Shown here: in pieces, positions 1,259-51,619 of the stretch
How the letters are laid out: each line of letters starts with the position of its first letter
Position numbering within the stretch: position 1 is the first letter of the stretch
NCBI RefSeq assembly: GCF_963506605.1
Contig: NC_083280.1
Coordinates: 56,358,001 to 56,422,000 of the forward strand
Reading direction: 5' to 3'
From: Zootoca vivipara
Taxonomy: Eukaryota
Length of the DNA stretch: 64,000 nucleotides
The notes under the pieces: generated by a model
Databases searched by the model: none
Told to the model about the DNA's origin: nothing
Seen by the model: only the letters and a program-made list of their open reading frames with translations
Made by a program: the position numbers and the translations under genes

Positions 1259-1559
1259 TATTATGTGATGGTTTGTGGTGGTTTGCCAGTTCAACAGCTG
1301 GCAAATCCACAACTCATTCATTTTGTGACTGAGCTCAGAGCAATAACTATTATCACTCAGACAGATATTTGAATCGGTACAAAAAAAAAATTAGTCTCTT
1401 GTCTCTGAGCTTTCAGTCCTTGTCTCACAACTTTTGAAATACCGGTAGTTCACTGTGCTTGTTCAAAGGCATACATTCAGAATGATTCACAATAAACATA
1501 TTTTATTGTATCTCCTGGTCTATTGCATTATTACAGAGTCAGATTCCATTGTGAATCTT

Positions 1560-9070: not shown

Positions 9071-9129
9071 ATAAGAGATACAGAAATATATGGAGCTATA
9101 AGGTACCAAAAATACAGGAACAGCAGAGC

Positions 9130-9650: not shown

Positions 9651-9652
<2 letters not shown>

Positions 9653-9703
<51 letters not shown>
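9653..9703. repeat. (GT)n microsatellite
   Basis: Perfect run. Confidence 0.95.
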
Positions 9704-9705
<2 letters not shown>

Positions 9706-10328: not shown

Positions 10329-10460
10329 AATAATAATAATAATAATTTATTATTTATACCCTGCCCATCTGGCTGGGTTTCCCCGGCCACTCTGAGAGGC
10401 TTCCAACAGACATTAAAATACAATAATCTATTAAACATTAAAAGCTTCCCTAAACAGGGT
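10329..10460 (-). mobile_element. L2-clade LINE 3' tail
   Basis: Reverse complement of the 10725-10860 type tail, with (AAT)n. Confidence 0.85.
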
Positions 10461-10465
10461 TGCCA

Positions 10466-10765
10466 AAGTGTTGGTGCTGACCTTTAAAGTCCTAAATGGC
10501 CTCGGCCCAGTGTACCTGAAGGAGCGTCTCCACCCGCATTGTTCTGCCTGGACACTGGGGTCCAGCTCTGAGGGTCTTCTGCCAGTTTCCTCACTGAGAG
10601 AAGCAAAGTTACAGGGGACCAGAAAGAGGGCCTTCTCAGTAGTGGTGCCCGCCCTGTGGAACACCCTCCCATCAGAAATCAAGGAAATAAACAACAACCT
10701 CACTTTTAGAAGACATCTGAAGGCAGCCCTATTTAGGGAAGTTTTTAATGTTTGTGTTTTATCAC

Positions 10766-10807
<42 letters not shown>

Positions 10808-10881
10808 TTGTTGGGAGCCACCCAGAGTGGCTGGAGAAACCCAGTCAGATGGGCAGGGTAAATAAATAAATAAATAAATAA

Positions 10882-10921
<40 letters not shown>
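10466..10921 (+). mobile_element. L2-clade LINE 3' end (ORF2 C-terminus plus tail)
   Basis: KVLVLTFKVLNGLGPVYLKERL...RAFSVVVPALWNTLP...FRRHLKAALF is a classic L2 ORF2 C-terminus; (TAAA)n/(TTA)n tail. Confidence 0.9.
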
Positions 10922-10923
<2 letters not shown>

Positions 10924-11845
10924 GGTTTATCCTCCTCAGTACGCTGTTAGTGTGTGTTGGAGGTGAGCATCAGAGTTCAGCTTGTAAGAGCCAACCCACC
11001 ATGAGCAAGGCAGGCCAAAAGAAATGTAGCTTCCTAGTGCTGACAGAGAACTGAGGTAGAGGGAAGGTTGTCTTTTAACTAGCTACCTGACTGCTGATCA
11101 TTTAATAAAACTATGGCCCTTGGGTTCAGTCCAATTAATGCATCTCATGTTTTATTTCCAGGATGCTGGAGTAACAGAAATTTGGAGCTGTCATTCAAAA
11201 AGCAGCAAAGAGCAAAACTTTACTTACAAACTTTGACTAACACAGAAATGCATGGGCTGCCTGTCAAGCTCCTCCAAAATCAATACAATTGCTGGGAGGC
11301 TTACAGATTGGTGCTGCCTGTGGAGTAACTTATAACAAAGCCAACTTCTTACCTGCAAATTAGGTCCATTTCTTCAGGTGTCAGCATCCGTCCGGAATGT
11401 AATGAGATTTTCTCACATTTGTCATGAAAAGTCCTTATAAGTTTTACAGTCCAGAGCAGAATTAACTAAATTATTTTTTTTTCAGTTCCCATGAAACTCA
11501 TTGGGCCTTACTTCTGAGCAGACAGAAATATAGGACTGCAGTGACATTCACAAAACTGGGTGCCTAATTTTCACAGTGGCAGGATTTAAAGAATTATTAG
11601 CTTGTGTGTGATTTTGCATTGCTTCAGATAATTCTCAATAGGCTGAGCAGCTTGCTATCTTGCATGATGTCAGAATATTTCTGAAGAAAGTTAGCCCACT
11701 CAAAGACTGAGCCAGTTTGTCATTATGCTTACTGCCAGACCATTGCTCATTATCACTTCCCATTCAAATAGGTGATCAGCTTGCTGTTGTGATTTCTGTC
11801 GGGCTATTGCACATCCTCCCCTCATTCAGTGGAATTAGTCTAGCT

Positions 11846-11981
11846 CAGGCATAGGCAAACTCGGCCCTCCAGATGTTTTGAGACTACATTTCCCATCATC
11901 CTAGACAACTGGTCTTGTTAGCTAGGGATGATGCGAGTTGTAGTCCCAAAACGTCTGGAGGGCCGAGTTTGCCTATGCCTG
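11846..11981. mobile_element. 136-bp hAT MITE
   Basis: TIR CAGGCATAGGCAAACTCGGCCC; perfect TSD GTCTAGCT. Confidence 0.95.
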
Positions 11982-12075
11982 GTCTAGCTATACAACAAGT
12001 TGTACACCTGCAACTTGTTTTGTACACCTGCAATTAATGTTCAGAAACCTGTTGCTATATTTGAGATACTTCCTA

Positions 12076-12445
12076 AAAAGGTAAAGGTAAAGGACCCCTA
12101 TCAGTTAAGTCCAGTCGCGAACAGCTATGGGGTTGCGGCGCTCATCTCGCTTCACTGGCCGAGGAAGCCGATGTTTGTCTGCAGACAGTTTTTCCGGGTC
12201 ATGTGGCCAGCATGACTAAGCTGCTTCTGGCAAAACCAGAGCAGCGCACGGAAACGCTGTTTACCTTCCCACCGGAGCGGTACATATTTATCTACTTGCA
12301 CTTTGACGTGCTTTCGAACTGCTAGGTTGGCAGGAACTGGGACCAAGCAACAGGAGCTCCCCCTGTCGTGGAGATTTGAACCTCCGACCTTCCGATCGGC
12401 AAGCCCTAGGCTCAGTGGTTTAGACCACAGCGCCACCCATGTACC
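12076..12445 (-). mobile_element. Sauria SINE, full length
   Basis: AAAGGT-repeat tail, tRNA-like head; TSD TTGAGATA(C/T)TTCCTA (12061-12075, 12448-12462). Confidence 0.95.
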
Positions 12446-13560
12446 TTTTGAGATATTTCCTAGTGGTATGCTATTTAGATCCACAAAAATGAAGAGTTTA
12501 CATATTCTTCTCCAATGCCCTGATTTTTGTTTTTTGTTTTTTGAGGCAGGTGTTTTAGATGTTAAAAGAAAGTGTATGGCAAGCTTAGAGCAAATACTTT
12601 GCACATTATTTTCCAGCCACCTACATTCTTTTTTCCCTACTCTGAAACACAATCGTTCATTACATGCTAGCTCTTCTGCAGCACTCTTTAAACTACTATA
12701 GATAATACCACTGCAATAATTACACCATGAAGGGGAAATGAATAGGGTTCTTTTGGATACTGACAGGAGACAAAGTATGTATTCATATGAAATTTCAATG
12801 AAAGGAGAATTGCTGAAGCAGGGAAATGAAAAGATACGGGAGAGAAGAGGCAAACTTTGCTCCAAGCCACAGACAAAGTGATATATTACTTTAGAAGGGA
12901 TTAAGATCTATAGGGCCCAGCAGCTGAGACACTAGGTTAGGAAGTGTGTGTATGTGTTTGATTTCCATATGTCACCAAAGACTCACTGCATAATGTATGT
13001 GAAATGATCATATGCCTATGAGTTTGTCAATTAAGTCTCATGGCCACACTTCCAGTGTGCACACACCCTCTGGATGCCTGCACTCTAGAAAGTTCACTGT
13101 AAGTAAAGACCCCTGGCTCCATATAGTTTGCAGACTAAAAGCAACAGCAGCAAATACCGGTACTGGTGGTATTTGCTGGATTGATTTCCATTCCAGACAC
13201 AGGATGAATAAGTGAACATTGGCAATTTCGACTCCCGTTTCTATTTCTGTCGGAATTCTATGACATACCTAGTCAAATCCTGTGCATTTGCCAGTGTTAT
13301 CTATATTTGCCAAAGAATCCAGAGTGTTCCTGTTGGTCTCGCCACAATACTTGTTTGTTTGTGGATTTATCTGTTTATTTTTAATCATATCCTCAGGCTC
13401 TGTGGTCAGGTCACTTGCATTTGTCATATAACCTCTTGAAGAATTAAAGTTGGGTTTTCTGGGCATTTTCTTCTGGGATCATTTGTCCTAAATGCTTATA
13501 GTCAATTAATCTCTGATAATTTCATCTTTCAAAATTCTGTACTCCTTAAGTATACATTGC

Positions 13561-13855
13561 AGGAGCGTCTCCACCCCCATTGCTCAGCCCAGACACAGAG
13601 GTCCTCCTCCGAGGGTCTTCTGCTGGTTCCCTCAGTGCGAGAAGTGAAGTTACAAGGAACCAGGCAGAGGGCCTTCTTGGTAGTGGCGCCCTCCCTGTGG
13701 ATGTCAAGGAGATAAAGAACTATACAACTTTTAGAAGATATCTGAAGGCAGTCCTGTTTCAGGGAGTGTTTAATGTTTGATGGGTTTTTTTTAATGTTTT
13801 AATATATGCTGTAAGCCACCCAGAGTGACTGTAGAAACCCAGCCAAATTAGCAGG

Positions 13856-13902
<47 letters not shown>
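13561..13902 (+). mobile_element. L2 3' fragment with (TTA)n tail
   Basis: Homologous to 10520-10920. Confidence 0.88.
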
Positions 13903-13905
<3 letters not shown>

Positions 13906-13964
13906 TTGCAGTCTGGTAACAAAATGGTATATGACAGGGATGAGAACCAGTTACCATCCTGATG

Positions 13965-14135
13965 GCTTGTAGAGCACATGGCTCACATACAGGCTTGTCC
14001 CAGGTTCAATGCTCTGGTGTCCCCAGTAGAACTGGGAATGTTTCCTACCTGAAACCCTGAAGAGCTCATGACAGTCAACATAGATAATACTGAGCTAGAT
14101 TGGCCAATAGTATAAGCTAGCTTCTGATATTTCTA
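13965..14135 (+). mobile_element. tRNA-head, CR1-tailed squamate SINE (Squam3-like), diverged
   Basis: TAGAGCA..CCCAGGTTCAAT B-box, CTGAAACCCTG..ATACTGAGCTAGAT; paralogs at 27025, 29503, 47925, 55287, 57582. Confidence 0.65.
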
Positions 14136-14220
14136 TGTTGTTTGGTTGGTGAGCTGCTTTGGGAAGGCGGCAAACTTGAAAGGTGGCTTAGAAATTTTAA
14201 ATGAAGGTATGTTCTTCTTC

Positions 14221-14523
14221 TTGAGAGTCCCATGGACTGCAAGAAGATCAAACCTATCCATTCTGAAGGAAATCAGCCCCGAGTGCTCATTGGAAGGACA
14301 GCTCCTGAAGCTGAGGCTCCAATACTTTGGCCACCTCATGAGAAGAGAAGACTTCCTGGAAAAGACCCTGATGTTGGGAAAGATGGAGGGCACTAGGAGA
14401 AAGGGACGACAGAGGACGAGATGGTTGGACAGTGTTCTCGAGGCAGTGGAAGACAGGAGTGCCTGGTGTGCTATGGTCCATGGGGTCACGAAGAGTCGGA
14501 CACGACTAAACGACTAAACAACA
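14221..14523 (+). mobile_element. RTE-BovB 3' fragment
   Basis: LRVPWTARRSNLSILKEISPECSLEG..; (CAA) tail; 12-bp TSD ATGTTCTTCTTC; ~33-bp internal deletion relative to the 2219 copy. Confidence 0.95.
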
Positions 14524-16059
14524 ATGTTCTTCTTCAGATAGCAGACTCCCAGTAGAAACAATTCCCATCAGCAAGGTACTAGCGAACCTATGAAGCTATC
14601 GGTAGGAACACTTAGACACCTTTGCTGAGGGGAAAACACAAAGTGTCATACCAAAGGCACAAAACCTCAGAAATGGCACTGATGTACAGCATCTGCCATG
14701 AACAGTCCCCACAGTACTGAGATAAAAGATCACGAAAACAATAAAGCAAATGAAAAAGGATGGCACGGTGACAAAGTGACAGGCAGCTGCAGCAGAAAAA
14801 CCCAAGAAACACTGTATTTATTTGCATACACTCAAGAAATTTAAGCATGGGTATTAAGAGTTCTCTCCCAGGTGCCTACTACAGAAGAGATCTTACCTGG
14901 TTTTGTCAAGACAAAGGTATTTTCTCAAAGGGTGAGTAGCGGCAAATTTCAACAGATGAAAGCAGTCCCCCCCCCCACTGGTTTCTGGACCTCAGAAGGC
15001 CCTTACAGATCTCACAGGATGCATTTTGGGATGAAATCCATGGGACAGCAACAACAGGGTGCATTCTCAGCTCTCAATGGAGTGAGTAGGCATGCATTGC
15101 ACTATGCAGCTGTTTTTATATGTTCTTTATTATATTGTAAATCACTTTGGAGTACCTCATGGGAAACAAATCATAAATGGAATTGGTAATAGTAATGATG
15201 GTGGTGCCTTGAAAAGGATAGCATTCATAAATCTTATTTAGAAGTTTTGTTTGTTTCCAAAGAGTATGGGACTAGCAGATCACTCCCTTCATGAATTACT
15301 GGCATATGGGGTGGGGAACCTGCTAAAGAAAATGTCTGTCTATCTGTCTGTCTGTCTGTCTGTCTGACTACTGGTGTAAACAAATACCTTTCACTGCCGT
15401 CATGACTGTGCACTGACTTGTGTTCAGAAACACATGTTCCTTGGTAGCACGGCTCTTGAATTATTGAAAGCTGAAGTTGCAGAAAAAGCTGCAGATCAGC
15501 TGGGACGCAAATGGAGCAATGCTAAAGCCCCCTATGGCAGGCATGCTAAAGAGCTGTAGAGCTGCATGATGGAGAAAGAGTAAGAAGAATTATTTCCTCA
15601 GGACAGGACATGTCCTTGGATAAATAGGAACTTGCATAGGGAAGATAAATCCCCTCAACATACCGTTGAGGTTAATGGACACATATATCAACTAAACTGC
15701 AAATTAATTCATTTGGTGGCTCATCAAGCAACCTCAGACACCCCAGGTGTGTCCGAAGGTAGGAGACACAATCCTTCAACTACCCACCATTCTGACCAAA
15801 ATCCACAACCTACTTGGCATTCTTTTTGTAAACTTCTTTGAGAGTTCCCCCCCAATCAAGTGATATATAAATTTTATGAAATAAATAAATAAGAAAAGTC
15901 AACTGTACACACAATTCCACAGCCAATACAGAACAGTAGAGCATAGCTGAATGACAAGAAAAACACAACTATAGATCTAGGTCTGTGAATCAAAGACAAG
16001 TTGCACAGTCAGCCCACTAAATGATCTGTAGCATAGCATTTTCAATGGTACCTCGGGTG

Positions 16060-16194
16060 CAGTGGTACCTCAGATTAAGAACTTAATTCGTTCTGGAGGT
16101 CCGTTCTAAACCTGAAACTGTTCTTAACCCGAGGTACTATTTCTGGGTTAGCGGAGTCTGTAACCTGAAGCGTCTGTAACCTGAGGTACCACTG
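16060..16194. mobile_element. Tigger-like MITE, internally deleted, with a duplicated left TIR (16043-16059)
   Basis: CAGTGGTACCTC...GAGGTACCACTG-TA; matches the 8284 copy. Confidence 0.85.
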
Positions 16195-17584
16195 TACAAC
16201 TCGAGTCATTGTAACAACATAGAAAGTTGCCTTATGTTGAATCAGATCTGAGATCTTTTTTCATGAAAAGCAGATAGCCTACCACTAAGATCCTCCTCCA
16301 AAGCATTTGTATTCTCTTGAATAATTGTGACAATGCACACTCTGGAACTGGCTGAAAGAAATGCTCTTTTTTTGTCATGTTCACAGAGCCAGTAGACTCA
16401 GAAAAGCAGTTTTCACACCCAGTCTATGCCTTATTCCTTATGTGATCTAGGTTGTGTGTGTAAGATTTAGTGTAAAAGCTACCATCCTTGGCTGGTGTTG
16501 TCCTTGGTTGGGCCATGGAACCTACAGGGACCAGACCAAAAGAAAAGCAGAGAAAAGAATTGGCATAGATTTAAGCCTGAGTACCATCCTCTCAGTTTTA
16601 AAAGACCTGTGTGAAATATCCACCTGGATGAAACCAAGATTACATCAAAGTTCTGTGATCCTCTTAAAAGAACCTGAGAGTGAACCCTAAGCTGAAATAC
16701 ATCCAAATTCTCTATTGATTACTTTTCATTGACTTAACTGGATATCCTGTTGAGTTCACAGAGCCTAATTGTGCAAATCACTATTCGGTAATCTAGAGGG
16801 ATTCACAAGGAAGTAGGCCCAGATACAAAATTCATTGAAATTCATAGATGTCTTCCACCGTCTTCATAGGTCAGGCCTTCAGCTGGGAGTATTTTCCTGA
16901 GAAAAGGCAAGCTGTTCCTTTTCTTTTTTCATGTACTATACTTGAATGTGTTATTTTATTTAAGGGCAAGTTTAAGTCAAGGGAAAGAGATGGGAGGAGG
17001 GGAGGAAGAAATGAATATTTTTTTAAAAAGAAAGAGAGGTGTAGAACAAAAATAGCACTCTTAAATGTGTGCTTTCTTGGAATGTTTCCAAATGACTGTA
17101 AACTCTCTCAAGGTTTTGAGATGCAGAAAAATAGGGCTGTTTATGCCCTCCATTGCTCTTTTATGATGTGCAGAGACAGCCTCGTAAAGATTGTTGTTCT
17201 TTTGTAATGATTCATCTATTTTTTTCCCCTTCCAAAGTATTTGGCAACCGCTGGAGGTCCTGGAGCAGGGCCATCTATGAAGCTTGAACTCCAGCTCTCC
17301 AGAGTCCTAGTACTATGCAACACAGAGTTTTAAACTGGAGAAACGTTCAGACAGAGATTCGACTCCTTAGTGTCATATTGTATTGACACATGATAGTCAG
17401 TTGAATTTATGAAAATAAGAGATTGTGAAGATGAGCGCTAATGGAGTTAGTCCTTTAAAACGGATCAAAGCACTGACTCAACTGCAGATGCAAACACTGT
17501 GGATTCACCTCAGCTGCTAAATGTTTGGCATAACATTCAAATCGACTCCGCATAAATACATTTTTAAAATTAACATTTTCTTGT

Positions 17585-17850
17585 ATTTATAGCCCACCTT
17601 TCTTCCATTCATTGATCCCAGCGTGGTATAGATGTGGTTCTGGGGTTATAATAATAATAATTTATTATTTATACCCCGCCCATCTGGCCGGGTCTCCCCA
17701 GCCACTCTGGGCGGCTTCCAACAAAAAAATGAAACACAATAATCTATTAAACATTAAAAGCTTAAAAGGTTGTCTTCCATTCAGTCACTGGCCAGACCCA
17801 GACTTGCTTAAGTTCAGAAATGTAATGGCTTCATGTGCCTCCAGACCATA
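17585..17850 (-). mobile_element. Putative 5S rRNA-derived SINE3 interrupted by an L2 tail (about 17647-17765)
   Basis: GTCTTCCATTCAGTCACTGGCCAGACCCAGACTTGCTTAAGTTC resembles antisense 5S rRNA; similar relic at 23945-24040; L2 tail matches 10329-10460. Confidence 0.5.
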
Positions 17851-17902
17851 CACATCCTTTCATTTACTTATTTATTTCATAAAATTTATATACTGCTTGA
17901 TT

Positions 17903-17940
<38 letters not shown>

Positions 17941-18017
17941 ACAAAACCCTAAACGTGGTTCATCCATCTACCATCCAAAATAATATAATTATTTTGCTGA
18001 AACAAAACAGTTCCTTA

Positions 18018-18252
18018 CCGTGTTTCTCATATTATAAGACATGTCTTATATTTATTTTTTCCTCAAAAAAACACACTATGACTTATTTTCAAGGGGTGTC
18101 TTATTTTTTTCCTCCTCCTCCTGCCGCGGCCGGCATTGCTGCTGCGCCTATCACTATGTCTTATTTTCGGGGTATGGCTTATATTCCTTGAATGCTTAAA
18201 AATCCTGCTATGGCTTATTTTATGGGTATGTCTTAAAATATGAGAAACAGGG
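18018..18252. mobile_element. Tc1/mariner (pogo/Tigger-type) MITE with CCG-type ends
   Basis: TA-CCGTGTTTCTCATATT...AATATGAGAAACAGGG-TA; repeated GTCTTATTTT subterminal motifs. Confidence 0.9.
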
Positions 18253-18763
18253 TAGATTGCAAAGGCGCAGCTCAATTCTGTTCACCAGTAAGCATCATTA
18301 TGTGCAGTGGGGCTTACTCCTTATTCCGCAGGTTTAGGATTTACAACAAATAGCACGATACAGTGTGTGTCGACTATGAAGTTGAGCCCCTTTGAGTCCA
18401 ATGGAATTTATATTCTTGACAATTGCATACAGGATTGCAACCTTTATTTATATACGGACCACATCAGATGATCACTTGTGATGTTTATCCAAATGCAACT
18501 TCTCTGAACAGATTCAGATGCCCATGTCATTCATATGAATGGTTGTGATTATCATATGATAGTCTGATTATCGGGTGTTTTTATCATGCTGTGACTCACC
18601 AAAAAGTAATCCTTTGTTCTCCTAAAAGAGGAACAAATTTTCCTATGGTGGAGATGGTCTTGGGGTTTGGGGGTTGTTGGTGTTGTTGTTGTTTTCAATA
18701 AATGCTCTGTTTATTTATTTCATTCTATTTATGAATCACTTCCTATAAAAACAGCTTGAAATA

Positions 18764-18768
<5 letters not shown>

Positions 18769-18829
<61 letters not shown>
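18769..18829. repeat. (AT)n microsatellite
   Basis: Perfect run of about 30 units. Confidence 0.95.
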
Positions 18830-18830
<1 letters not shown>

Positions 18831-20339
18831 CCAATTTCAAATCTAATACAGATATGTGAGCAATATTCCCATAGGCTCCTTGGGGGCTGTGGTGGTGATG
18901 GGAATAGGGAATAGGGAAGAGATGTTTGAGAAACGTAATGTGCCGAGTAGTTAAAGCAATGTGTGTCACCTTTTTTCTTTTGTAAGGAGCAAAAGGAATA
19001 CCTGATAGCAAACAGTAACAAAGTCTCTGTTCCATCTCTCCAGTGACTATCTTCTGGGGTGGAAGCAGGTGAGTGGAATCTGTTCATGAGGCCTTGGAGA
19101 GGTATAATGAGAAGCATCTGCACTGCTGGTTTTAGCCCTTTTCATGAATTAGGCTCCAAATGTTCAAATACAAAGAGGAGAGATGCACCTATTTTCATTG
19201 CCCTTTCCAGCTCTGTCCTCAGACTTTCGCATATTGGGCTAAAGTTCTGATGAGGAATCTGTACACATCCTGCTAAATGCACATAGAATCCTCCATGCAA
19301 CCGGGTGCAAGTGGGATGATAGCTCTGACTCATGTGGCCCATGTTCAGCTGATTGGGCGGAGGTTTCCTCTCTGTGCATAGGGGTCTTGGGGTGAGGACA
19401 GCAGCAGACAGTAGGGACACAACAGTGGAACACTCTGCAGAGGACCTTCTTCTGTTCTGAATGCAAGCTCGAAGTCACCTTGAGCTACTGTATTTCATTC
19501 ATCCTGAATGGTATACACATTTACATGTAACAAATAAGCTAATAAAGCCTGGAAGTTCTGAAAAACATTAATAAGAAATGAAACTGCGGGTTGGATTCCC
19601 CTAATGAGCCACATCAGCAAAAGCCCAGCACAATTACATCCACTTGTGCAATGGGGCTATCCCTCCTCTTCTCCTCCATGCAGCCCCATCACCCCCAGAA
19701 TTGGCTCTGGGGGGATTGAGAGAACCCCCAAAACAGCACACAGAGGGTGGAGAAGGGGGGAATCATTCCATATGACAAGCTCCAGTGACTGCAGAGATGA
19801 AACATTTGTCAGAGCACAATTCTGCCCTTTATAGTGTGCTTCTGCATAATAAAGCTTCCTTCTTCAACACAAAATACTTGGAAAAGAGTATTCATAGGAA
19901 TATTCATAGGAATTCATAGGAAGATACATATTCCAGATATGCTCAAAAACACGAACAGTTCTAACACATGCCAAAATGTTTTCTTCCATTGTAGAAATCA
20001 GCTGTGAAAGTATCAGTATGAAACAGTCCTTTTAAAAAATAAAATAAAATCCATTTATCATCCAATTTTTGTGATGTTGCTTTATCAGCCTGTTTCCCAA
20101 GCTTACTTGTGTATGAATGTATTGCTGCTTCGAGATTAGAAATATTTGTTCTGTTTTAATATTCTTATTTTTCACTTGTTGAAACTGTTGAAATTCACTT
20201 GTTGAAATTGCATTTACAGTCTTCAATTTTTTATTTTCAAAAATGGAGAAAGTAAGAGGACGGTGATAAGAAAAGGGTATGTCTGCTGACACAGATTCAA
20301 GAAGATTAGATATTTTTATGCATTCAATTTCGATTTGAG

Positions 20340-20560
20340 GGAAATAATAGCTCACTCACACTTAGGGGGAAAGGAAGGCGTTCCAACGAGGAAATCCTAT
20401 ATGGTCAATTCTGCTCTGGATAATGCGAAAAAGATGAGAGCTGAAAACACTAAAGATTATCTTCCGATGACATCAGCATGGCGAATGAAAAGCTATAAGA
20501 CATGGGATGGCAGACTGGATCTCACCAGCAAGCTCTACCAAGAATATATATTCTAGACAC
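20340..20560 (+). mobile_element. Decayed RTE-like ORF2 3' relic
   Basis: Translates to EILYGQFCSG, similar to the RTE motif K.ILYG.L..G.R. Confidence 0.3.
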
Positions 20561-20651
20561 AAAATGTGCAGTTCAGAAACTGCTCATGTCCAGTCAGAAA
20601 AATGTAGAGATGCAGAAGAAGGCACATTTGGTGTATGTGTTTAATGATTTT

Positions 20652-20862
20652 TATTTATTTATTGCATTTATACCCTACATTTTTCCTCCGAAGAGCTCTA
20701 GGTGGCATGCACTGTTCTGCCCCTCCTCATTTAATTCCCACCACAAACCTGTGAGGTAAGGATAGCTGAGAGGCAGCGACTGATCCACAGCCACCCAGTG
20801 AGCTGCATGGGCAATTGTGGTTTGAAACCTGGTTTCCCAGGTCCTAGTCCAGCGCTCTAACC
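20652..20862 (-). mobile_element. MIR/CORE-like squamate SINE2
   Basis: CCTGTGAGGTA..GCCACCCAGTGAGCT..CCCAGGTCCTAGTCCAGCGCTCTAACCA; paralogs at 29055-29200 and 36860-37655; an inverted 3' piece follows at 20863-20945. Confidence 0.7.
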
Positions 20863-21690
20863 AGGATAAAATGGAGATAGGGAAAACCATGTAGATGGCA
20901 CCTTAAACTTTCTGGAGGAAAGGTGGGATATAAATGTAATCAATTTATTTACTAATGCAGCCTTTAAAACAGTTTAAAACAAATTACAATCACAGCTACA
21001 GTGGGTTCAAGAAATTTATATCTCAAGTGTCAAAGATAAAGAGGTGCATCTTTAACATACAACCCAAGTTGTACAATGAAGATGTCAAAGGTTGCCTCTG
21101 TGGGGAATAGCGACATAATACCGGTAGGTACAGAGTAAAAGACCCCTGCAAAGCTTTGAGCTTTATAACCTCAACGGCTTCAAACTGCTGACTGAGGGTT
21201 TTTTTTCAGTCTTTTCAAAAAAGTTCGGTTGTTGCTACTTGAAAGTGTTAGCATACTGTTAAAAATTATATTCACTCCATTAATTCAGTTTATAAAATAT
21301 GCAGTTCGCTGTGGCTTTGAATAACTGGGAAACCTACGACGGCCTTCAAGAGTTCTAGCTTACAGATCATTCAGATTTCAAGTCTGAGGGGTTGCATGGG
21401 TGTACAACATCTACACAGCTATTTAATAATAACAATAATAATTTCCTTGCTAGGTTTCCAGTGGAGCAAGGCCAATATTTCAGTCAAAGCAAAGCAAAAC
21501 AAAATGTTACCTACTATAAATACAATCTCAACTGAGAAATTTCCAGCATTTAAACAGCCTCCTACCCAGTGTTCGCTGACCCGCAGTGGGTCCCCAGGGT
21601 TTCATACATGTGTCTTTTCCAGCCCTACCTAAGGATGCGAAGAATTGAACCCGAGACCTCAGGTGCTCTGCCACTGAGCTTCCCCTAAGC

Positions 21691-21826
21691 CAGGCATCCC
21701 CAAACTGTGGCCCTCCAGGTGTTTTGGCCTACAACTCCCATGATCCCTAGCTAACAGGACCAGTGGTCAGGGATGATGGGAATTGTAGTCCAAAACATCT
21801 GGAGAGCCGAAGTTTGGGGGTGCCTG
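21691..21826. mobile_element. 136-bp hAT MITE
   Basis: TIR CAGGCATCCCCAAACT; TSD CCCTAAGC/TCCTAAGC; sits at the head of a SINE relic. Confidence 0.92.
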
Positions 21827-22257
21827 TCCTAAGCCATAGCCCTTTCCCTACTCTAATGCAAACATCTGGAGAGCATCCCGTGTGCTGCCTCTGCTCAACG
21901 GCATAATAAGAATTTGAGTAAAGCATGTAACTTAATGAAGCTCATTATACACAACACCAGTGTTTTCTCATGCAAACATCTGCATTGTTATTCTAGAGCA
22001 TGATTTTATTTGGGTATCTGCTACCTTTAGTAGTCCTAGGCAGTTCACTACCTAAGGAATGCAAGACCAAATGGAGACCAAATGGAGGCTAGAAGAGAGG
22101 GCAAGCAGAGGTGATGAGACAAACATTCAGCGTCTAGTTTCATTATAACTGTCTGAGGTGTCTGCCTGCTCCATAAATAGAAGAAAGCAGACCTCTCATT
22201 TCATTTCATTCATGTGGTTTAAGAGACAACAGGCCTCACCAGCTGCAACACAAGATA

Positions 22258-22258
<1 letters not shown>

Positions 22259-22307
<49 letters not shown>
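22259..22307. repeat. (CA)n microsatellite
   Basis: Perfect run. Confidence 0.95.
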
Positions 22308-22308
<1 letters not shown>

Positions 22309-23011
22309 ATGAAACAGGATTCTTTTATCTCCCTCTTAGGAAATGAAAATATGGACAAGTTTGCTTTTCGAGGCTGCAGAAAGCCACAGAAATGTGAAAG
22401 GCACTTACATAAATAATATTCACATTTATTTCCCGCCATGTCTATATTTACCTTTACTTGCCACTTTCAGTAGCATAAAACGAAGCATTTCTAGTTTGTC
22501 ACAAACGGGCCTTTTATTAAAGGCCAGAGTTGAAATACCTTTGTAACAGTTCTTCCTATCAATAAACAAGCAAGCTTTGCACTATACAATCCAGACTTTG
22601 TCACATTTAGGGTTAGCAAGCTCGTAACCTCATGTTTGGGCCAGATGGTTTGCATTAGAATGGGCACCTTAAGAATAAACACTGCTCTCTGCCTGGAAAC
22701 TCATTTGATACATCTTGCCAGACAATGTACAGAAAAAGCAATGGCATGTAGGCTGCTCAGGAAAATTAAATTTGCTAAAACTTAAAGGGCCTTCTTTGTC
22801 CTTCGGTTTGTCCTTCAGTTAAAGCTAATGTTTTCTGGTTGGGCCAGTCCAATTAACCTGTGGCTATATCCAGCACTCACTATGCAGATTGACAACGACA
22901 AAAACTGAGTAGCCCAACACAGCTGGGTAAAAGTATGTTAAAAACTGCACCACTGATTGAAATGCCCCGAGAAATAGCTACAAATCATGAGCACTCTTAT
23001 AGAGTGCTGAA

Positions 23012-23471
23012 GGGACGTGGGTGATGCTGTGGGTTAAACCACAGAGCCTAGGGCTTGCCAATCAGAAGGTTGGCGGTTCGAATCCCCGCGACAGGGTGAG
23101 CTCCTGGGTGACCTTGGGCTAGTCACACTTCTTTGAAGTCTCTCAGCCCCACTCACCCACTTAGCCGCTTTGAGACTCCTTCGGGTTGTGATAAAGCGGG
23201 ATATCAAATCCAAACTCTTCTTCTTCTTCTCCCATTGCTCAGTCCCAGCTCCTGCCAACCTAGCAGTTCAAAAACACCTCAAAGTCCAAGTAGATAAATA
23301 GGTACCGCTACACCGGGAAGGTAAACGGCGTTTCCGTGTGCTGCTCTGGTTCACCAGAAGCGGCTTTGTCATGCTGGCCACATGACCTGGAAGCTGTACG
23401 CTGGCTCCCTCGGCCAATAATGCGAGATGAGCGCCGCTCATCTAATGGTCAGGGGTCCCTTTACCCTTTAC
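23012..23471 (+). mobile_element. Sauria SINE with a nested foreign SINE 3' fragment (about 23106-23229)
   Basis: GGGACGTGGGTG head, GGTTCGAATCC B-box, CCTTTACC tail; TSD CTTATAGAGTGCT; insert ends in (CTT)n. Confidence 0.92.
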
Positions 23472-26400
23472 CTTATAGAGTGCTATAGCTGCTGGTTGAA
23501 CTTCTGTCATTAGACAGATTCCTGACCAATTCCCCAGGATATTTGGTTGATGGCTGATCAATGGGTTGGGATTTGGTCCTCTGAGAACTTGAGATTCCTC
23601 TTTGGTGTTTTAAATGGGACATGCAGTAATGTTGCCTAAACATTTGAGTCCCTCTTCATAACCACTCCTGATTTGTAAAATTAAAAAGCTTTACCTTTTA
23701 TTATTATTATTATTCTGTCCACTAATGAACTTTGATTTGAGCCTGGAAACTATTTGATAGCCAATGCAGTCGTGCCAGAATTGGTGTTATATGTTTGGAC
23801 TATCCTGTCCCAGTCAACAATCTGGCTGCCATAGTCTGCACCAGCTGCAGTTTGGAAACTTCACATGTATAACAGATTGCAGAACTCCAGCCTAGAGGTT
23901 CCCAGAGCATAGACAATGGAGGTTAGTCTGTTCATGTATATTCTGCTTTTCATCCATGAATCCCAAGGCAACATTCATGTGGTTTCAAGACTGCCTTCCA
24001 TCTAGGTACCAGCCAGACACAGGCAGTGTAACTTCATCAAAGTTCCATCAAGGGTCTTCCCATTTTCTGGGACCAGGTCTCTAACACATAGAACAACTTA
24101 TCAAATAGATCACCATTGTTTTATGGGCTCGCCAAGAACATCCAGCAAGGATGTGGAGAAGTTCCAAGTGATAATGATCCACATGGTAACCAACTCCCAT
24201 TGTAGTCTCTGACTGCATACACTCTATCGTTTACTCTGCATCCAGTATCTATCCTGTTGTTTCTTATAAAATACTGCATTTTGATGCCTTTCCCCCCAAA
24301 CCAGCTTCAATATTAATTGAGAAAAAGAAACAATCTAGCTGCAATTTAAGCTGGTAATGTGTACACAGTCTCAGTGTAGAACACTTGGCAGAAGAAGCCT
24401 GGTTTGAGAAGCATTTGTCAGGGCAAGAACAACATGAGTCAGTCTAGGGGGGGGGGAGCCATTCGGTCTACTTAACACAAGCCAAAAGTCAATCTAGGGG
24501 ACAGAAACCATCTAATCTACTTAACACAGGCCTCTGGTTTGAGAACATTAGGAAAATGGACGCTTTTTTCTTGCAGAAACTGCCTGCATTACCCAGTGAA
24601 TGTATTGCCCATTTCTATTGAACATGTGCAAACAACATGAAAAAGTCAGAAGACAGACTGAAAGAATCACAAATTGCAGACCTCATGAGCATGGAGCTCT
24701 CTCCCCCGCGCTTCCTGCTCCTTGCTTTTCTCTGGAGTTCCTGCAGTTTCAAATGAGTGAATACATGACAGCTAGCCTTCTAAGATTTGACAAGTACCTA
24801 TGTACTGTGTGAAATGAATATCTGCTTCAAACAGAATAGGAAGAGGACGAATAACTTCCCAGGGGTCTGACAATATTCACTCTATTTTGAAACGTTAAAT
24901 TTCAAAATATACTAGGATTTCTACCTTGGGGCCAGTGCTGATTTAATACAGCTACTCTGTTAACCATGGTTAAGGGTTCAGGACTGGGTGGTAGTGGGCT
25001 TTCTCTTCCCCCAGTATCTCCTCTCTCAAACCAGCGTTTTCCCTGCTTTCTCTCACCAGCTTTAACCATAGTTTGAGGTTACACTGGCAGCAATACCGGT
25101 AGGGTATACCGGTAAGGGGGCACACAGGGTTTGAAGCTAGTAACAACACCCTGGCTATGTTCGAGTCCTGGTAACATTAACCATGGTTCAGATCAGTACA
25201 TAACCATGGTGAAGTTGTCAGGGGGAACATAAGCCAAATAAGAAGTACTAGGGAGAACTTCTACAGCCTAGTCACATTTACTTAAGCACAGTTCAGTATT
25301 CAGTTTTTGTTGAAGATATATCTGCTGCTATTAATGCATTTCCCTGTCATAAGCCTCTGATGGCAATTTCCACTCAGATGGTACAGAATACTTTGGGGGA
25401 GGGGACATACCACCAGTTCCTTATTGTCTTCTATATCCATTGGCTATTTTTGATGATGTCTTGAGTCCAAACAAGCATTGGGTTGGATATGTGTCTATGT
25501 CACTTGGAGTATGACCTGGGGTGGCACAAAGTTTGTTGTGTGCACAGCCTTATTCATTTTTAAATATTTTGATGTTTGTTGTATGCACATAGTAGGTTGA
25601 GTCAGGTCATATAATGGAATCAGAGTTTGGGCATGTCTTTGGAATCTTCAAAACCAAACCTACTGAGAAGCCCCAGTACTCCAACAACATGTGAACGGTA
25701 CTTGTTTCTATTAGACTTCAGTCCCATTCATTGTAGTGGAACTTTCTTCCATACAAGTGGCATAGATCTGTCAACCATTAGCATTTCCATATGTCCTTTT
25801 CAGTGCAGCTCAAATGCAGCAACTCTGATTTGTGTCTTATTTGCCTGTGACTCTGATTGATGCTCAAAAGAAGACAGCTGGCATTGCACAAGTACAGCAG
25901 AAGGTTATAGCCATGGAGACTTGTGTTTAAAATTCGTAACACAAGTCTGGGGATTTTTACAGAGAGGAAGAAACATATTGAGGCCTTTCATGTTCTTTGA
26001 ATTTACTCAGCTTGGAAGTCAGATAAATTGTGCAATCCCATTATGCTTATAATTGAGGCTAGTCGTTAGTCAAAGCTAAATAAGCCTGAATCTACATCTG
26101 TGCTGCATCACATCTCTTTATTCCAAAGTTATTCAAGTAAACAAATCAAGAGAAAGTATGTTGAATTTCCCTCTCACTGTCTGAATTTAACGAATGTATC
26201 TTACCTGTAGCTTAAACGTATTTCACTTGTGGCTTGAAATTACATTCCTTTATAGATCTTTTTTCTTACCAGGCTCATTCACTATCCCCATCCCTCAAAA
26301 ACATAAAAGGTTCTATATATGAATCTTGTAAATATCTACTGGTTTCAGGTAGCCATCCCTGGTACATAAAAGTCCTATTTTCTTGTGAGGATGAAACTAT

Positions 26401-27024
26401 TTCATCATTACTAGGGCTTACTGGGGCTCCCTTGTAGTTAATCATACAGCACAAAGGAGCATAAACATGCCTGAGGAGCACATGAGTAGGTGGTGTAACT
26501 TCTCAAAGACTAGACAGGGTAAATAGAAATGTTGGCTGATAAACTGAAAACAGAAAAGCAAGGCTTTCAGAGTGAAAGCAACCCGAAGAAATGGGCAAAG
26601 TAGGTCAGCAGATAAACAAGATCTCCCTTTTCCCTTTCTCAAATATTATGGGCACTCCCGATATTGAAGGGAATCCAGTTCATTTACAATTCTGAAATTT
26701 TCCACAGGTACCCTCCCTTTTTCTTAACATTTATTTGCTAGGTTCACAACTAGGCCACAAGTAAGGTTTCAAAAAACGTTTCTGTGGTCTGGAAATCAAA
26801 CCAAGAAAACTTGTCCTCCAAAGAACCCTGAAGAGATGCTGTGGGTCATCTTTGAGCAGTTTTGCACTTAAATTCACTGTAGTCACTATTTAATTTAACT
26901 ATTTAATTTGTCACCATGCAAAGATGTATACATGGAGACACGTTTCTACATGCTGCTGTAATAACATGCAACTACATACCATGACAGTATGAAAACTACC
27001 CCAGTCTCTTTTTGCTAAGTCAAA

Positions 27025-27192
27025 CAGAGTGGTAGAAGGCATGCAAAAGATCTTCATTTCATTTCTCAGCATCTCCAGGTAGGGCTGGGACAGACTGCTA
27101 TCTGAAACTTGGGAGACCACCTGCTGGTCCCTACAAACAATGCTAGTACAATAGTCTGACATGGTATAAGACAGTACCAGTTCCCTATGTTC
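27025..27192 (+). mobile_element. Squam3-like SINE
   Basis: GCATCTCCAGGTAGGGCTGGGA..CTGAAAC..TATGTTCCT. Confidence 0.65.
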
Positions 27193-28752
27193 CTATCCCT
27201 AATGAATTTTAAATCCAGGAGTTTGTCCTTTAGCAATTGCAAAATGGTACAGTCAATGGCAGCAAGTAGATTAGCAAATAAATGGATGGGAAGGACAATT
27301 CCAACTCTGTTATTTTCAACTGCACAATACAAGATGAGGATGCTTTTCCATCTCATTTCTGAAACAATTCTGCCTTTGTAACCACTAAACACTGTGCTGA
27401 TCACCAGGAAATGGAATTTTCTGAGATTTTAACTGTATTGAATTAGCTGTATTAACTAAACAATGAGCAATGGAGGCTGGTGATGCAGTCCTTTCTGAAA
27501 CTTGATAGACCTAGTAGTTAGATTGGTGAAAGAAACAGCTGCATCTCTTTGGCAATATTAAGAACTCTCCACAATACTTCAGAGAGCCTGTTTAACTGCA
27601 TCAGCTATCCAACTGCATCAAGTACCCATTTAAAGGATCATTTAATAAGCAGTGCAATTATCTGCATTTCAAATCAATTCACACACACCTGACATCTTGA
27701 TGGAATTGTCAGGTGTTTTTTTTTTAAAAAAAGTCTGAGTTCATAATCCCATTGCACAGATTAGTTTCAGGCCCACCTGTTCAGCCATCGGCCATATGCA
27801 GCATGCATACCAATGCAGGCTTCCTTGTGGTCCTCACTAGCTGGATAGGGAATCATGCAGTCTTTGTCCATTCATGATTCCCCAGCCTGATTTGGCAGCC
27901 AGGCCTGAGAGTTCAGAGCTGCTGCATCAAGCAATCAATGCTAGTGCTGATTGCTTGATGGAAAGCAGCAGAATGGATGAAATGCCCCTGATCCCCTTAA
28001 ATTTCTAATCCACATGACTGATGATTGTTCAACCGGGGATATGCACGCATGACCTCACTTCCTCTGGATAGAGCCAGTGGCTACAAATGGCAAATGTTCT
28101 TCATTGCTTCTTATTAAAAGCACATCCTCTCCTGCAACTTATTGTTCTAGGACTACAGTCCTTTCCAAATATATTGTCACATTCTCCTGGAATCCCTGGA
28201 ATCTTGCACCGCTCAGAGATTGGGGTGGCATGAAACACTGTTTTTCGATATGAGCAAGAGTCTCCACTATTTCTATGCTTGGTCATCCATCCCTTCTGAC
28301 TCTGCTGTAGGAAAACCTTGCTGCACTCTCTAAAACATCTGTGACCACAGTCAATGATACAAATATTGCAGTGGGAATTATAATAGCCAAAGGACATAAT
28401 CTTGGGTCCTGTTTCCAGCTAGTGAGAGCATTTATTGACTTCCTTACATCCCTTAAAGTTATGAGTGATAATCAATATGGTTAGAAATCCAATCTGAGCA
28501 AATATAATGAGTTGTGAATGGAATAATATTATTCTTCACAAGCTTTATGATGTTGTGCTGCTCAGTGGATTCTCCTGTCTTAAAATACCCACTTCCCAGA
28601 TCCACTTGTCATGGGATTTTTGTTGCTAAATTACATGGGCTGCAAATCACCCATAATGTATGCATGTATTTTTCAACCCATTTGAATTTAAAGCATATGT
28701 AAGTAGTGACTGGATCTGCTCAGGCCCCTACTCAAGATGCAATACACTAGAA

Positions 28753-48654: not shown

Positions 48655-49356
48655 CTCTTCAGAGTCCTGTGAATTCCCTGGCATACAGTGACTCATCCAG
48701 GAGATTTTTTATTTATTTTTTACACTCAGTATCAAATTAACTTTTACATAAAACAGGATTGCTCTTTTTGATTAAGCAGGACCCCATGTGATCAATGAGA
48801 GGTCAGGGAGTCTCTAGTTAAAAATGCTGATTAGCTTTAATTTTAAACTTGGATTGGACCAATGTTGAACCAGAAAATAACAACAACAAATTAATTAGGT
48901 TGCAGATGGAACAAACTGTGTCTTGTTTTTTTTTTTGGCTTCTTTTTCTATGTTAATGGAAAGTGATAATCACCGTGCTTGATAATGTTAAAGAGATTTG
49001 AATGAATGTGCTGTTACTTTCATGGGTTTATTCCAGTTGCAACTTGTATGGTGGTAAATGAGAAGGCTCTCTTAATGAAATAATTAGAGTACAGTTTCTA
49101 AAATGGCAGAGCAATTGAGATCAGAATTAAAATAATCCTGTCCCTCCATTATGGAAGATTCTGTAATTTTGACAACTTACAGGCGTGTGATTTAAAAAAC
49201 AAAAAACAAACAAACTTTGGTATTCATCACAACAAAAAAGTTGATCTTCCTTAAGGTGTCTCAGTTTAAGCAAGAATGAGAAAGACACAGATACAGGAAG
49301 CTAGGTTTTGGGCTCTATGAGCATCTTAGGGTACTGGATGCATCCCTATAGATTTG

Positions 49357-49680
49357 CATACTCTCCAACATTTCTACAATGAAAATAGGGACATCCCATT
49401 CTATAATGGTAATTTTACTATTTGTACCCCACACATCTTACGGGGTTGACCCAGCCACTGTGAACAGCTTCCAACATAGATAAGAACATAATAAAACATT
49501 AAACTTTTTTTAAAAAAACAAACCTTCCCGATACAGGATTGCCTTCAGATGGCTCGTGGGTTGGATAGCTCAACACCCTCCATCATTTCTCCAATGAAAA
49601 TAGGGATCGAATCAGCCCAGGATGGTTTTTCTAAATCAGGGACATCCCTGGAAAATACCGGTAGGGACACTTGGAGGGTG
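49357..49680 (+). mobile_element. Composite hAT-like MITE carrying a captured L2 tail
   Basis: Ends CATACTCTCCAA / TTGGAGGGTG; TSD TAGATTTG/TGGATCTG (6/8); inverted paralog at 51254-51956. Confidence 0.75.
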
Positions 49681-49926
49681 TGGATCTGATGAGGGAGGAA
49701 TGGCTGTGTCTCTACCTACATTCTTTCTGTATACGGTAAATATGGTAATTATTGAAAACACCATGAAAATTGATGATTTCCTGCCCAAGGGAATCAAATG
49801 TGCAGAAGCACTGTGCCCCTTGACATTTTCACTGCCCAAAGAAATAGGTTGTTATGAGCTTAAGGTTTATTGATTACCAAAGAATGGACAGCTAATATGT
49901 AGCAATGCATTTTAATAAACGAACTA

Positions 49927-50111
49927 CAGTAGTACCTCGGGTTACGAACATGATTCGTTCTGGGTCACAGTTCGTAACCCGATAAGGTCGCAAACCGAGC
50001 GCCATTTCTGTGCATGTGCAAAGCGCGCGCGCCGAAAACACTTCTGGGTTTGCGGAGTTCGTAACCCGAACTGTTCGCAACCCGAGCGGTTCGTAAACCG
50101 AGGTACGACTG
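49927..50111. mobile_element. Tigger-like MITE, young
   Basis: TA-CAGTAGTACCTCGGGTTACGAAC...GTTCGTAAACCGAGGTACGACTG-TA; CpG-rich. Confidence 0.92.
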
Positions 50112-50406: not shown

Positions 50407-51472
50407 GTCTAGAGCACCGGCTAAAACTGCGGCTCTCTGAAAATGTGATTCAGGATCAGCAATTCTGCTGCCTATTTTCAAGAGCCTACGTTATTTACAT
50501 CTATGCATTGCTTGCATATGTGTAATTACAATAAATGTTACAAAGACACCACAAATCTCCAGTATTTTCCCAAACAGAAGAAACTGAACTCTTCAGCATA
50601 GCCCCTGGATGTCTCACCACTGGGGAAAGTGGGTGGCAGCATGTTAACACTGGTGTGAGATACACTGATTCTTTGAAGAGAACTGCAAGCTGCCAAACGA
50701 TCAAAGATTAAGCAAATACTAGCACTCCTGAAAATAAGACTGTCAAGATAGCAGATTCCAAGACAAACCAAAGCAATTCTGGAGATGCTAAATACCTCCC
50801 ATACATAGAACGGGAACAAGCCTGAAGTCCCACTGTGAGGAGGTGAGAACCTAATTTGATCAACAGTTACAAAGGGTCAAAGCTGACTCATAGGCCCAGC
50901 TGCAAAGCACCCAGTTGGGGGTGGGTGAAGAGGTGGGGGAGCAGCTGGCGAGCTTGGAGTGTGGACTATTGAGGTCAGTTTGCTAAGAATAAACAAACTG
51001 TCTCTGCCCTGGAGCTGGTCAGCATAAATAAGGATGAAAAGCAGGAGGAACACTGGAAAACTGCTGGGAAGAGATTGTGCCAAAGGAAAAGCAGAAAGGA
51101 CACAGGTTAGAAGCCTGCAGGCAAAGTCAAAGAGAAACTCAGTTTAGAGGCTCCGCCTTGTGTTCCCATGGAAGTGGATGGAATACGACTGGCACTTTCC
51201 TTTAACAGCATGGCAAAGCAGCATCTCGAGATTCTACCCCAAAACCCAGAGACAGACCCTATGAAAATGTCCCTATTTTCATGGGAGAAATGTTGGAGGG
51301 TATGGAGTTATCCAACCCCCTGAGCTGTCTGAAGGAAAGGGTTTTTTTTTATAAAAAAGTTTAATGTTTTATTATGTTTTTCTATATGTTGGAAGCTTCC
51401 CAGAGTACTGGTGCAACCCAGTAAGATGTGTGGGGTATAAATAGTAAAATTATCACGATGGAATGGAACAGC

Positions 51473-51584
51473 CAGTGCTTTTTTTCTGGGGGGAGGGCGC
51501 ATACTCCTAAACATTGAGGGGCAGTATTTCAATATGAGTAGGGAAATGAGAGTACCCCTAAATATTTTAAGAAAAAAAGCACTG
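51473..51584. mobile_element. 112-bp hAT MITE (nested)
   Basis: TIR CAGTGCTTTTTTTCT / AGAAAAAAAGCACTG; TSD GGAACAGC/GGGACATC (6/8). Confidence 0.8.
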
Positions 51585-51619
51585 GGGACATCCCTATTTT
51601 CACTGGAGGAATTTTGGAG

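What the first reader, a model, noticed from the sequence alone, without database searches (positions are those of the whole stretch)
49651..49670. TA-CCGG-TA scar: direct evidence of a Tc1/mariner excision footprint
Seen: the motif GAAAATAGGGA occurs intact at about 49381 and 49596, and in reverse complement near 51271 and 51591. At 49651 it reads GAAAATA-CCGGTA-GGGACAC, a 6-bp insertion made of CCGG plus a duplicated TA. Known: Tc1/mariner/pogo elements duplicate TA and leave terminal bases between the two TAs when they excise. Seen: the window contains MITEs beginning TA-CCG (18018, 36933). Inference: CC from the left end plus GG from the right end gives CCGG, so an element inserted here and then excised in the germ line.
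Basis: partly seen in the sequence, partly recalled or inferred. Interest (0 to 1): 0.7.

Follow-up and report, generated by a model that had tools for sequence, protein, structure and literature searches.

The report
Jumping-gene scar in a lizard genome
Six extra letters inside an old repeat (TA became TA-CCGG-TA) are most likely the scar left when a pogo-type jumping gene cut itself out of germ-line DNA, and this genome likely holds tens of thousands of such scars, probably about ten for each such jumping gene still in place.

Summary
Confirmed. TACCGGTA at 49656-49663 is a 6-bp insertion at a TA in a 326-bp host MITE; 28 of 30 family loci lack it. At this same host position all three states occur among paralogues: empty, filled by a 1,050-bp CCG-ended element, and scarred. 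Another sample of the species has the insert; three related species appear not to. The likely makers are pogo (Passer-like, DD35D) elements with CCGTGTTT ends, present as 99.9-100% identical intact copies. At one SINE site, 100 listed inserts read CCG 32, CGG 26, CCGG 18, CC or GG 0. Scars outnumber resident elements about 10:1 there. TACCGGTA occurs 32,985 times against about 3,000-4,000 expected, but some copies are internal to repeats, and two window sites failed or were unresolved against outgroups. Excision footprints are textbook; the scale and the CCGG route were not found in print. This scan noted the same scar earlier in a diatom genome.

The parts
49656..49663 (.). TA-CCGG-TA scar: duplicated TA around four terminal bases of a CCG-ended element
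49357..49682 (+). Host MITE (326 bp; ends CATACTCTCCAA and TTGGAGGGTGTG, family ends CA[T/G]ACCCTCCAA and TTGGAGGGTCTG) with repeated sub-terminal GAAAATAGGGAC motifs; the scar lies 19 bp from its right end
   Evidence: orthologous flanks covered in X1, X3, X6, X9
49351..49356 (+). Left copy of the host MITE's 6-bp target duplication (GATTTG)
   Evidence: 12 of 18 full-length family copies have a 6-bp duplication with at most 1 mismatch
49683..49688 (+). Right copy of the host MITE's 6-bp target duplication (GATCTG)
18018..18252 (.). TA-flanked CCGTGTTT-ended MITE, non-autonomous relative of the pogo DD35D family; its right end has lost the CGG (reads AGGG)
   Evidence: same first 24 bases as L191-L194 and L197; 79-87% identical to both ends of L204
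36933..37042 (.). TA-flanked CCGTATTT-ended MITE, 110 bp; its right end reads CTG instead of CGG
   Evidence: no match to the fetched autonomous elements printed
1440..1447 (.). TACCGGTA, candidate scar, untested (no paralogue)
13155..13162 (.). TACCGGTA, candidate scar, unresolved (one weak paralogue)
21119..21126 (.). TACCGGTA, candidate scar, untested (no paralogue)
25094..25114 (.). Two TACCGGTA 13 bp apart; not shown to be species-specific insertions
   Evidence: no 6-bp gap shared by X3, X7 and X9 among the rows shown; X7 and X9 have 2 extra letters at 25109; table cut (78 rows not shown)

Best explanation
The 6 extra bases at 49656-49663 are a CCGGTA insertion at a TA of an older MITE, and are most likely the germ-line excision scar of a CCG-ended pogo (Passer-like, DD35D) element whose two 3-nt overhangs likely annealed on their terminal CG. 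Steps: (1) shown: the host family has a plain TA here. (2) Shown in a paralogue, inferred for this locus: a CCG...CGG element inserted at the TA and duplicated it. (3) Inferred from the scar spectrum and from known Tc1/mariner chemistry: transposase cut 3 nt inside each end, leaving TA-CCG-3' on both flanks. (4) Inferred: end joining either paired the overhangs fully around a C:C mismatch (CCG or CGG, about three scars in four) or shifted by one base so that CG paired with CG and filled one base on each strand (CCGG, about one in four). (5) Inferred: this happened after the split from three related species, and the allele is shared with another sample of the same species. Odds: footprint about 0.92; CG-annealing route, given a footprint, about 0.7.
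For: Consensus lacks the insert in 28 of 30 loci. At the same host position, CCCTGGAAAA-TA-GGGACAC: filled L054 (1,050 bp, 18 of 20 terminal bases matching, TA on both sides, host continuing), CCGG in L057 (this site), L059, L066 and L067, CCG in L058; a second filled copy (L056) and a CCGG (L064) at inner repeats. The four CCGG copies are one clade in 0% of 200 bootstrap trees. Orthologous contigs of X3, X6 and X9 (three other species) stop matching exactly at 49662 with 6, 8 and 8 letters left over, while X1 runs through. At an unrelated SINE site, TA-N(1-6)-TA gave 320 matches (control 0); the first 100 read CCG 32, CGG 26, CCGG 18, CTGG 6, CCAG 1, CAG 3, CTG 2, CG 2, CCCG 2, others 8, and CC, GG or CCGCGG 0 (hand tally); 20 of 20 fetched rows are SINE copies. 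Pooled over three sites, 4-nt to 3-nt scars are 23:66 for CCG-type and 0:26 for CAG-type, Fisher P = 0.0017. TACCGCGGTA occurs 19 times in the genome. Flanks of 55 TACCGGTA sites (C 0.36 at -1, A 0.53 at -3) resemble those of 66 CCG-element ends (0.41, 0.48), not 40 CAG-element ends (C 0.10) or all TA (0.21, 0.31). Source: 3.08-kb elements with 23-bp CCGTGTTTCCCC ends and a 431-aa DDE_1 + HTH_Tnp_Tc5 ORF, DD35D, six copies 99.9-100% identical over their last 1,480 bp. Sleeping Beauty (CAG ends, 3-nt overhangs) gives TACAGTA or TACTGTA, and none of its eight reported footprints has four inner bases.
Against: No allele with the element at this locus was seen. The outgroup contigs do not bridge the site by the tool's 31-letter rule and their left-over letters were not printed, so 'empty' is inferred; X1 has only 6 letters left of the scar. 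Starred branches alone do not exclude one origin of the four CCGG copies. Not every TACCGGTA is a scar: of 20 unselected sites with paralogues, 8 were clear 6-bp insertions, 8 were repeat-internal or substitutions and 4 unclear. Window sites 25094 and 25107 did not show as species-specific gaps. CCGG can also be made without annealing by uneven cuts joined end to end (3+1, 2+2, 1+3); uneven cutting is reported for Sleeping Beauty, and CCCG (2) and CCCGG (1) show some imprecision. Several CCG-ended families coexist (L180, L201, L204, L210), so the exact donor cannot be named. The published Passer target AAGTACTT has G at -1, while C leads here.
Confidence: 0.85

Rival explanations
1. Same footprint, different joint: a 2-nt (Tc1/Tc3-like) or uneven cut, with the overhangs ligated end to end and filled (CC+GG, the first reader's version, or CCG+G).
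For: It gives the same letters. Tc1/Tc3 leave 2-bp footprints and Sleeping Beauty cuts unevenly at times (passages). Passer is reported to leave 0-4 bp.
Against: CC or GG alone 0 of 100 while CCG or CGG is 58 of 100. The 3+3 product is nearly absent genome-wide (19). CAG-type scars have no 4-nt form (0 of 26).
Confidence: 0.25
2. The six bases are an ordinary small insertion (slippage or templated repair) that resembles a footprint by chance.
For: Some TACCGGTA arise otherwise: substitutions and MITE-internal palindromes, and perhaps 25107.
Against: There is no local CCGG template. The same six bases recur at this TA in three other copies, and a filled copy exists. CCG-type inserts make up 88 of 100 inserts at another site.
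Confidence: 0.04
3. The scar was made once in a source copy of the host MITE and spread by the host's own transposition or by gene conversion, so no excision took place at this locus.
For: Four copies share the identical insert at the identical TA; the tree's starred branches do not force more than one origin.
Against: The copies are never a clade in 200 bootstrap trees. The right end of the host copy and its flank appear at the same place in three related species without the insert. Gene conversion from another scarred copy (4 known among thousands) is not excluded but improbable.
Confidence: 0.05
4. Assembly or polishing artefact.
For: All six window sites and the three matches had the same orientation of flanks.
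Against: Genome-wide there is no strand bias; an independent contig of another sample has the insert; the inserts match resident element ends and their target preference.
Confidence: 0.01

Closest known systems
Canonical Tc1/mariner excision footprints (Sleeping Beauty TACAGTA/TACTGTA; PMC6943129 and bioRxiv 10.1101/659086, passages read)
   Same: TA duplication around terminal bases of the element; 3-nt 3' overhangs; two mirror-image 3-nt scars in similar numbers (CCG 32, CGG 26).
   Different: Ends are CCG, so a frequent 4-nt scar (CCGG) appears that is not among the eight Sleeping Beauty footprints listed. These scars are natural and heritable rather than from cell-culture assays.
Passer (PS) family of the pogo superfamily (PMC7386202 passages; PMC9976928 passages and supplement rows)
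   Same: DD35D, DDE_1 + HTH_Tnp_Tc5, short ends starting CCGT, TA duplication, 1.6-4 kb, 400-500 aa. Passer elements with CCGTA ends are listed for several lacertid lizards in the supplement, and footprints of 0-4 bp are reported in HeLa cells.
   Different: The young family here starts CCGTG and exists as at least six near-identical intact copies, whereas the four lizard rows seen list 1-2 intact copies. BrkDBD was not detected. Tree placement was not tested. The sequences of the Passer footprints are in Fig. 4D, which could not be seen and may already show CCGG.
   Same: TACCGGTA over-represented and read as the scar of a resident pogo-type element.
   Different: Unrelated genome, unchecked AI note; here filled, empty and scarred states and the scar spectrum were counted.

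Membership tests
IS630-Tc1-mariner/pogo excision footprint | Target TA duplicated around the inserted bases | tested here: met
   TA-CCGG-TA against TA in 28 of 30 family loci
IS630-Tc1-mariner/pogo excision footprint | Inner bases equal the terminal bases of a resident TA-targeting element | tested here: met
   CCG...CGG ends in L054, L089-L100, L195-L204
IS630-Tc1-mariner/pogo excision footprint | Empty site is the ancestral state at this locus | tested here: met
   Paralogues. Orthologous contigs of three species stop matching at 49662; their letters were not printed, so the orthologue part is inferred
IS630-Tc1-mariner/pogo excision footprint | Filled allele at the same locus | tested here: inconclusive
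   Seen at the homologous TA of a paralogue (L054); not seen at this locus in the 4 runs laid
IS630-Tc1-mariner/pogo excision footprint | Scar flanks follow the element's target preference | tested here: met
IS630-Tc1-mariner/pogo excision footprint | Scar reproduced by the transposase in an excision assay | not testable with these tools
   needs a bench assay
Passer (pogo) for the source element | DD35D catalytic triad | tested here: met
   D174, D278, D314, spacer 35, triad assigned by motif
Passer (pogo) for the source element | DDE_1 with HTH_Tnp_Tc5 (with or without BrkDBD) | tested here: met
   BrkDBD not hit at E 0.001
Passer (pogo) for the source element | Short ends (<30 bp), TA duplication, 1.6-4 kb, one 400-500-aa ORF | tested here: met
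   23-bp ends, 3.08 kb, 431 aa
Passer (pogo) for the source element | Placement in the Passer clade (Fot/Fot-like are also DD35D) | not tested
   no tree with reference transposases was built
Passer (pogo) for the source element | Target consensus AAGTACTT as published for fish Passer | tested here: inconclusive
   A at -3 agrees; at -1 C 0.41 and G 0.27

The most novel reading that the evidence does not exclude
This lizard's germ line has been scarred on a mass scale by still-young pogo elements: some 40,000-130,000 heritable CCG, CGG and CCGG scars, about ten for each element left in place. Cut-and-paste excision with end joining is then a major source of 5-6-bp insertions and new CpG sites in a vertebrate genome, copy counts understate past transposition about tenfold, and the CCG:CCGG ratio records CG-microhomology use by germ-line repair.
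Probability: 0.55. Interest if true: 0.65.

Novelty: new variant of a known kind. Interest (0 to 1): 0.48.

Why it matters
One footprint is ordinary. What it leads to is less so. Excision of DNA transposons in vertebrate germ lines is mostly known from engineered assays and is usually invisible in genomes (own knowledge). Here an 8-letter CpG palindrome makes it countable. The scar-to-element ratio at fixed target sites gives a direct handle on how often natural elements excise and how the break is repaired, and the near-identical intact DD35D copies give a transposase with which the CG-annealing idea can be tested. The scars are also near homoplasy-poor, polarised markers for lizard population history, with the caution that preferred TA sites are hit repeatedly.

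Tried and rejected
Assembly artefact: suspected from one-sided flanks in the window, rejected. One origin amplified with the host MITE: not supported. End-to-end 3+3 joining: rejected. 'Every TACCGGTA is a scar': rejected. The lay of 23500-28150 was meant to test 25094 and 25107; its tables were cut, so 25094 is unresolved and 25107 differs in the wrong direction (2 extra letters in X7 and X9). The genome-wide control (32,630) has no CpG and is not a fair background; Markov expectations from 400 kb at fixed coordinates (2,614-4,144) were used instead. That sample held 6 TACCGGTA, against 9 expected from the genome count. (145 matches, control 414) has a high background, so only the 20 of 100 listed rows that were fetched, chosen by inner motif, were used. 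A possible CCGGTAG-ended element in L191 looks like two separate TACCGGTA 1 kb apart and was not pursued. Literature searches for the motif or for mass footprints in reptiles or vertebrates (listings only) found no such report; subscription papers and figures are not covered.

Full report
Observation. It sits 19 bp from the right end of a 326-bp MITE (49357-49682) with a 6-bp target duplication, GATTTG/GATCTG. TACCGGTA occurs 6 times in the window against 0.18 expected, and 32,985 times in the genome against 2,614-4,144 by Markov models from 400 kb taken at fixed coordinates.

Artefact and ancestry. All six window sites had A on the left, which raised the worry of a strand-bound assembly error; genome-wide counts are even (2,929 and 3,039). 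A contig from another sample and study of the same species (X1) matches 49650-49924 with no gap, so it carries the insert. Contigs of three other species (X3, X6, X9) that carry the unique right flank stop matching exactly at 49662 with 6, 8 and 8 letters unaligned. A scar or a filled site would have matched further, so these are inferred to be empty.

Three states at one site. A search for the host flank followed by TACCG gave 15 matches. Read out: L054 holds a 1,050-bp element with CCGTGTTTCCC ends between two TA at the very position of our scar, with the host end continuing after it; L056 holds a 188-bp element at an inner repeat; L057 (ours), L059, L066 and L067 carry CCGG and L058 carries CCG at the terminal site; L064 carries CCGG at an inner repeat; L060 is a substitution variant; six are not host copies. 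The four terminal CCGG copies form one clade in 0% of 200 bootstrap trees, although starred branches alone do not force several origins (29 rows, scar removed).

The makers. Close relatives of the L054 insert are 90-97% identical, and nearly all their ends are flanked by TA. A DDE_1 search (96 matches) and 20 fetched loci gave full elements of 3.08-3.24 kb with the same 23-bp ends and a 431-aa ORF with DDE_1 and HTH_Tnp_Tc5 and a DD35D triad. Six copies are 99.9-100% identical over their last 1,480 bp, so the family is very young; present activity is inferred, not shown. The MITE at 18018 shares its first 24 bases with five other transposase-coding loci. These features fit Passer, a pogo family (PMC7386202, passages; PMC9976928, passages and supplement rows); tree placement was not tested. 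The flanks of 55 TACCGGTA sites resemble those of CCG-element ends and not those of CAG-element ends or of all TA.

How CCGG is made. At one TA of a SINE with about 79,000 exact empty copies (22 in 400 kb), TA-N(1-6)-TA gave 320 matches, control 0. My hand tally of the 100 listed: CCG 32, CGG 26, CCGG 18, CTGG 6, CCAG 1, CAG 3, CTG 2, CG 2, CCCG 2, and one each of CCCGG, CA, C, GC, GGC, CTTA, CGGA and GCAGC; no CC, GG or CCGCGG. Twenty of 20 fetched rows are true SINE copies and are no more alike than empty copies (0.836 against 0.849). A second site (all 51 rows) gave CCG 1, CGG 4, CCGG 3, CTGG 1, CAG 4, CTG 8, CG 1, GG 1 and no CATG; the remaining 28 rows were other inserts, mostly local duplications. 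Mirror pairs CCG/CGG are what a 3-nt staggered cut gives, as CAG/CTG for Sleeping Beauty (PMC6943129 passages; bioRxiv 10.1101/659086 passages). Two CCG-3' overhangs can also pair CG with CG after a one-base shift, and filling one base per strand gives CCGG; CAG overhangs cannot. Four-base scars are 23 of 89 for the CCG type and 0 of 26 for the CAG type (P = 0.0017), and the end-to-end 3+3 product occurs 19 times in the genome. It does not exclude uneven cuts joined end to end, and some CAG/CTG could be CpG-decayed CGG/CCG, though the matching decay products CCA and TGG were not seen.

Scale. At the SINE site the element-start pattern gave 70 matches (control 5). Of 25 fetched, 10 were elements in the SINE (5 with both ends seen and the SINE continuing), 2 were scars with a changed flank and 13 were other places. 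That gives about 28 filled sites (15-43) against about 282 scars, roughly 10:1 (6.6-19). Elements with decayed ends are missed, which inflates the ratio; scars needed 14 exact flank bases against 6, which deflates it. Of 56 unselected TACCGGTA sites, 36 had no paralogue; of the other 20, 8 were clear 6-bp insertions, 8 repeat-internal or substitutions and 4 unclear. Taking 8 of 15 (unclear rows dropped, one duplicate pair counted once) gives 8,800-26,000 CCGG scars, and 43,000-127,000 of all CCG types if the SINE-site proportions hold. These are rough extrapolations.

Against. Window sites 25094 and 25107 did not appear as gaps shared by X3, X7 and X9, and X7 and X9 have two extra letters at 25109; the table was cut. 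No filled allele of this locus was seen. The donor family cannot be named among several CCG-ended ones.

What is known. Footprints of TA-targeting elements are textbook, and Passer is reported to leave 0-4 bp in HeLa cells; the figure with the sequences could not be seen and may already include CCGG. Nine searches (listings only) found no report of this motif as a footprint or of mass germ-line footprints in reptiles; subscription papers are not covered, and supplements of the bioRxiv paper were not seen. An earlier, unchecked note of this scan reads the same palindrome the same way in a diatom; look-ups for this genome and for look-alike stretches returned nothing.

Verdict. A real footprint (about 0.92) of a pogo DD35D element, probably joined by CG annealing (about 0.7). 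The single site is ordinary; the countable, genome-wide excess of scars over elements is the part worth following. Interest 0.48; new variant of a known kind.

Noticed in passing
window 49927-50111: TA-flanked CAGTAGTACCTCGGG MITE that is absent from the orthologous contigs of all four runs laid, including X1 of the same species: a very recent, probably polymorphic insertion.
   Followed up: partly
window 49732-49738: TACGGTA 76 bp from the scar; the other species read TACCGTA (X3), TACCATA (X6) and TACCCTA (X9) by the substitutions. Possibly an older 3-nt scar shared by all four species; no outgroup without it.
   Followed up: partly
window 49357-49682 and family (L001-L030): The host MITE has 6-bp target duplications (12 of 18 full-length copies), CA...TG ends and GGGAC sub-terminal repeats; superfamily not determined (hAT-like by recall only).
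   Followed up: partly
SINE site: Unexplained: CTGG 6 and CCAG 1 beside 18 CCGG suggest about 28% CpG decay, yet CCG/CGG show no CCA or TGG among 58. The 4-nt scars may be older, or may be altered during repair.
   Followed up: no
L069-L077 (inner GAAAATAGGGAC repeats of the host MITE): CAG (7) and CTG (2) scars dominate at the inner repeats while CCGG dominates at the terminal repeat: different TA-targeting families seem to prefer different TA contexts.
   Followed up: partly
L195:118-3357, L198-L201, L203: Six intact pogo DD35D elements at 99.9-100% identity, with further copies partly fetched (L196, L202) and a sister subfamily (L191-L194, L197, L204): a candidate active transposase.
   Followed up: partly
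L052:501, L146:301, L151:301, L154:301, L136:1866: TACCGGTA is also an internal motif of some MITE families (GATCTACCGGTAGATC; AAAACCGTACCGGTAAT), which inflates raw motif counts.
   Followed up: partly
window 25107-25114: X7 and X9 have AG put in behind 25109, so this site is 2 letters longer in two other species; origin unclear.
   Followed up: partly
window 51260-51486 and 51585-51619: Further partial copies of the host family in reverse orientation, forming long inverted repeats with 49357-49606.
   Followed up: no
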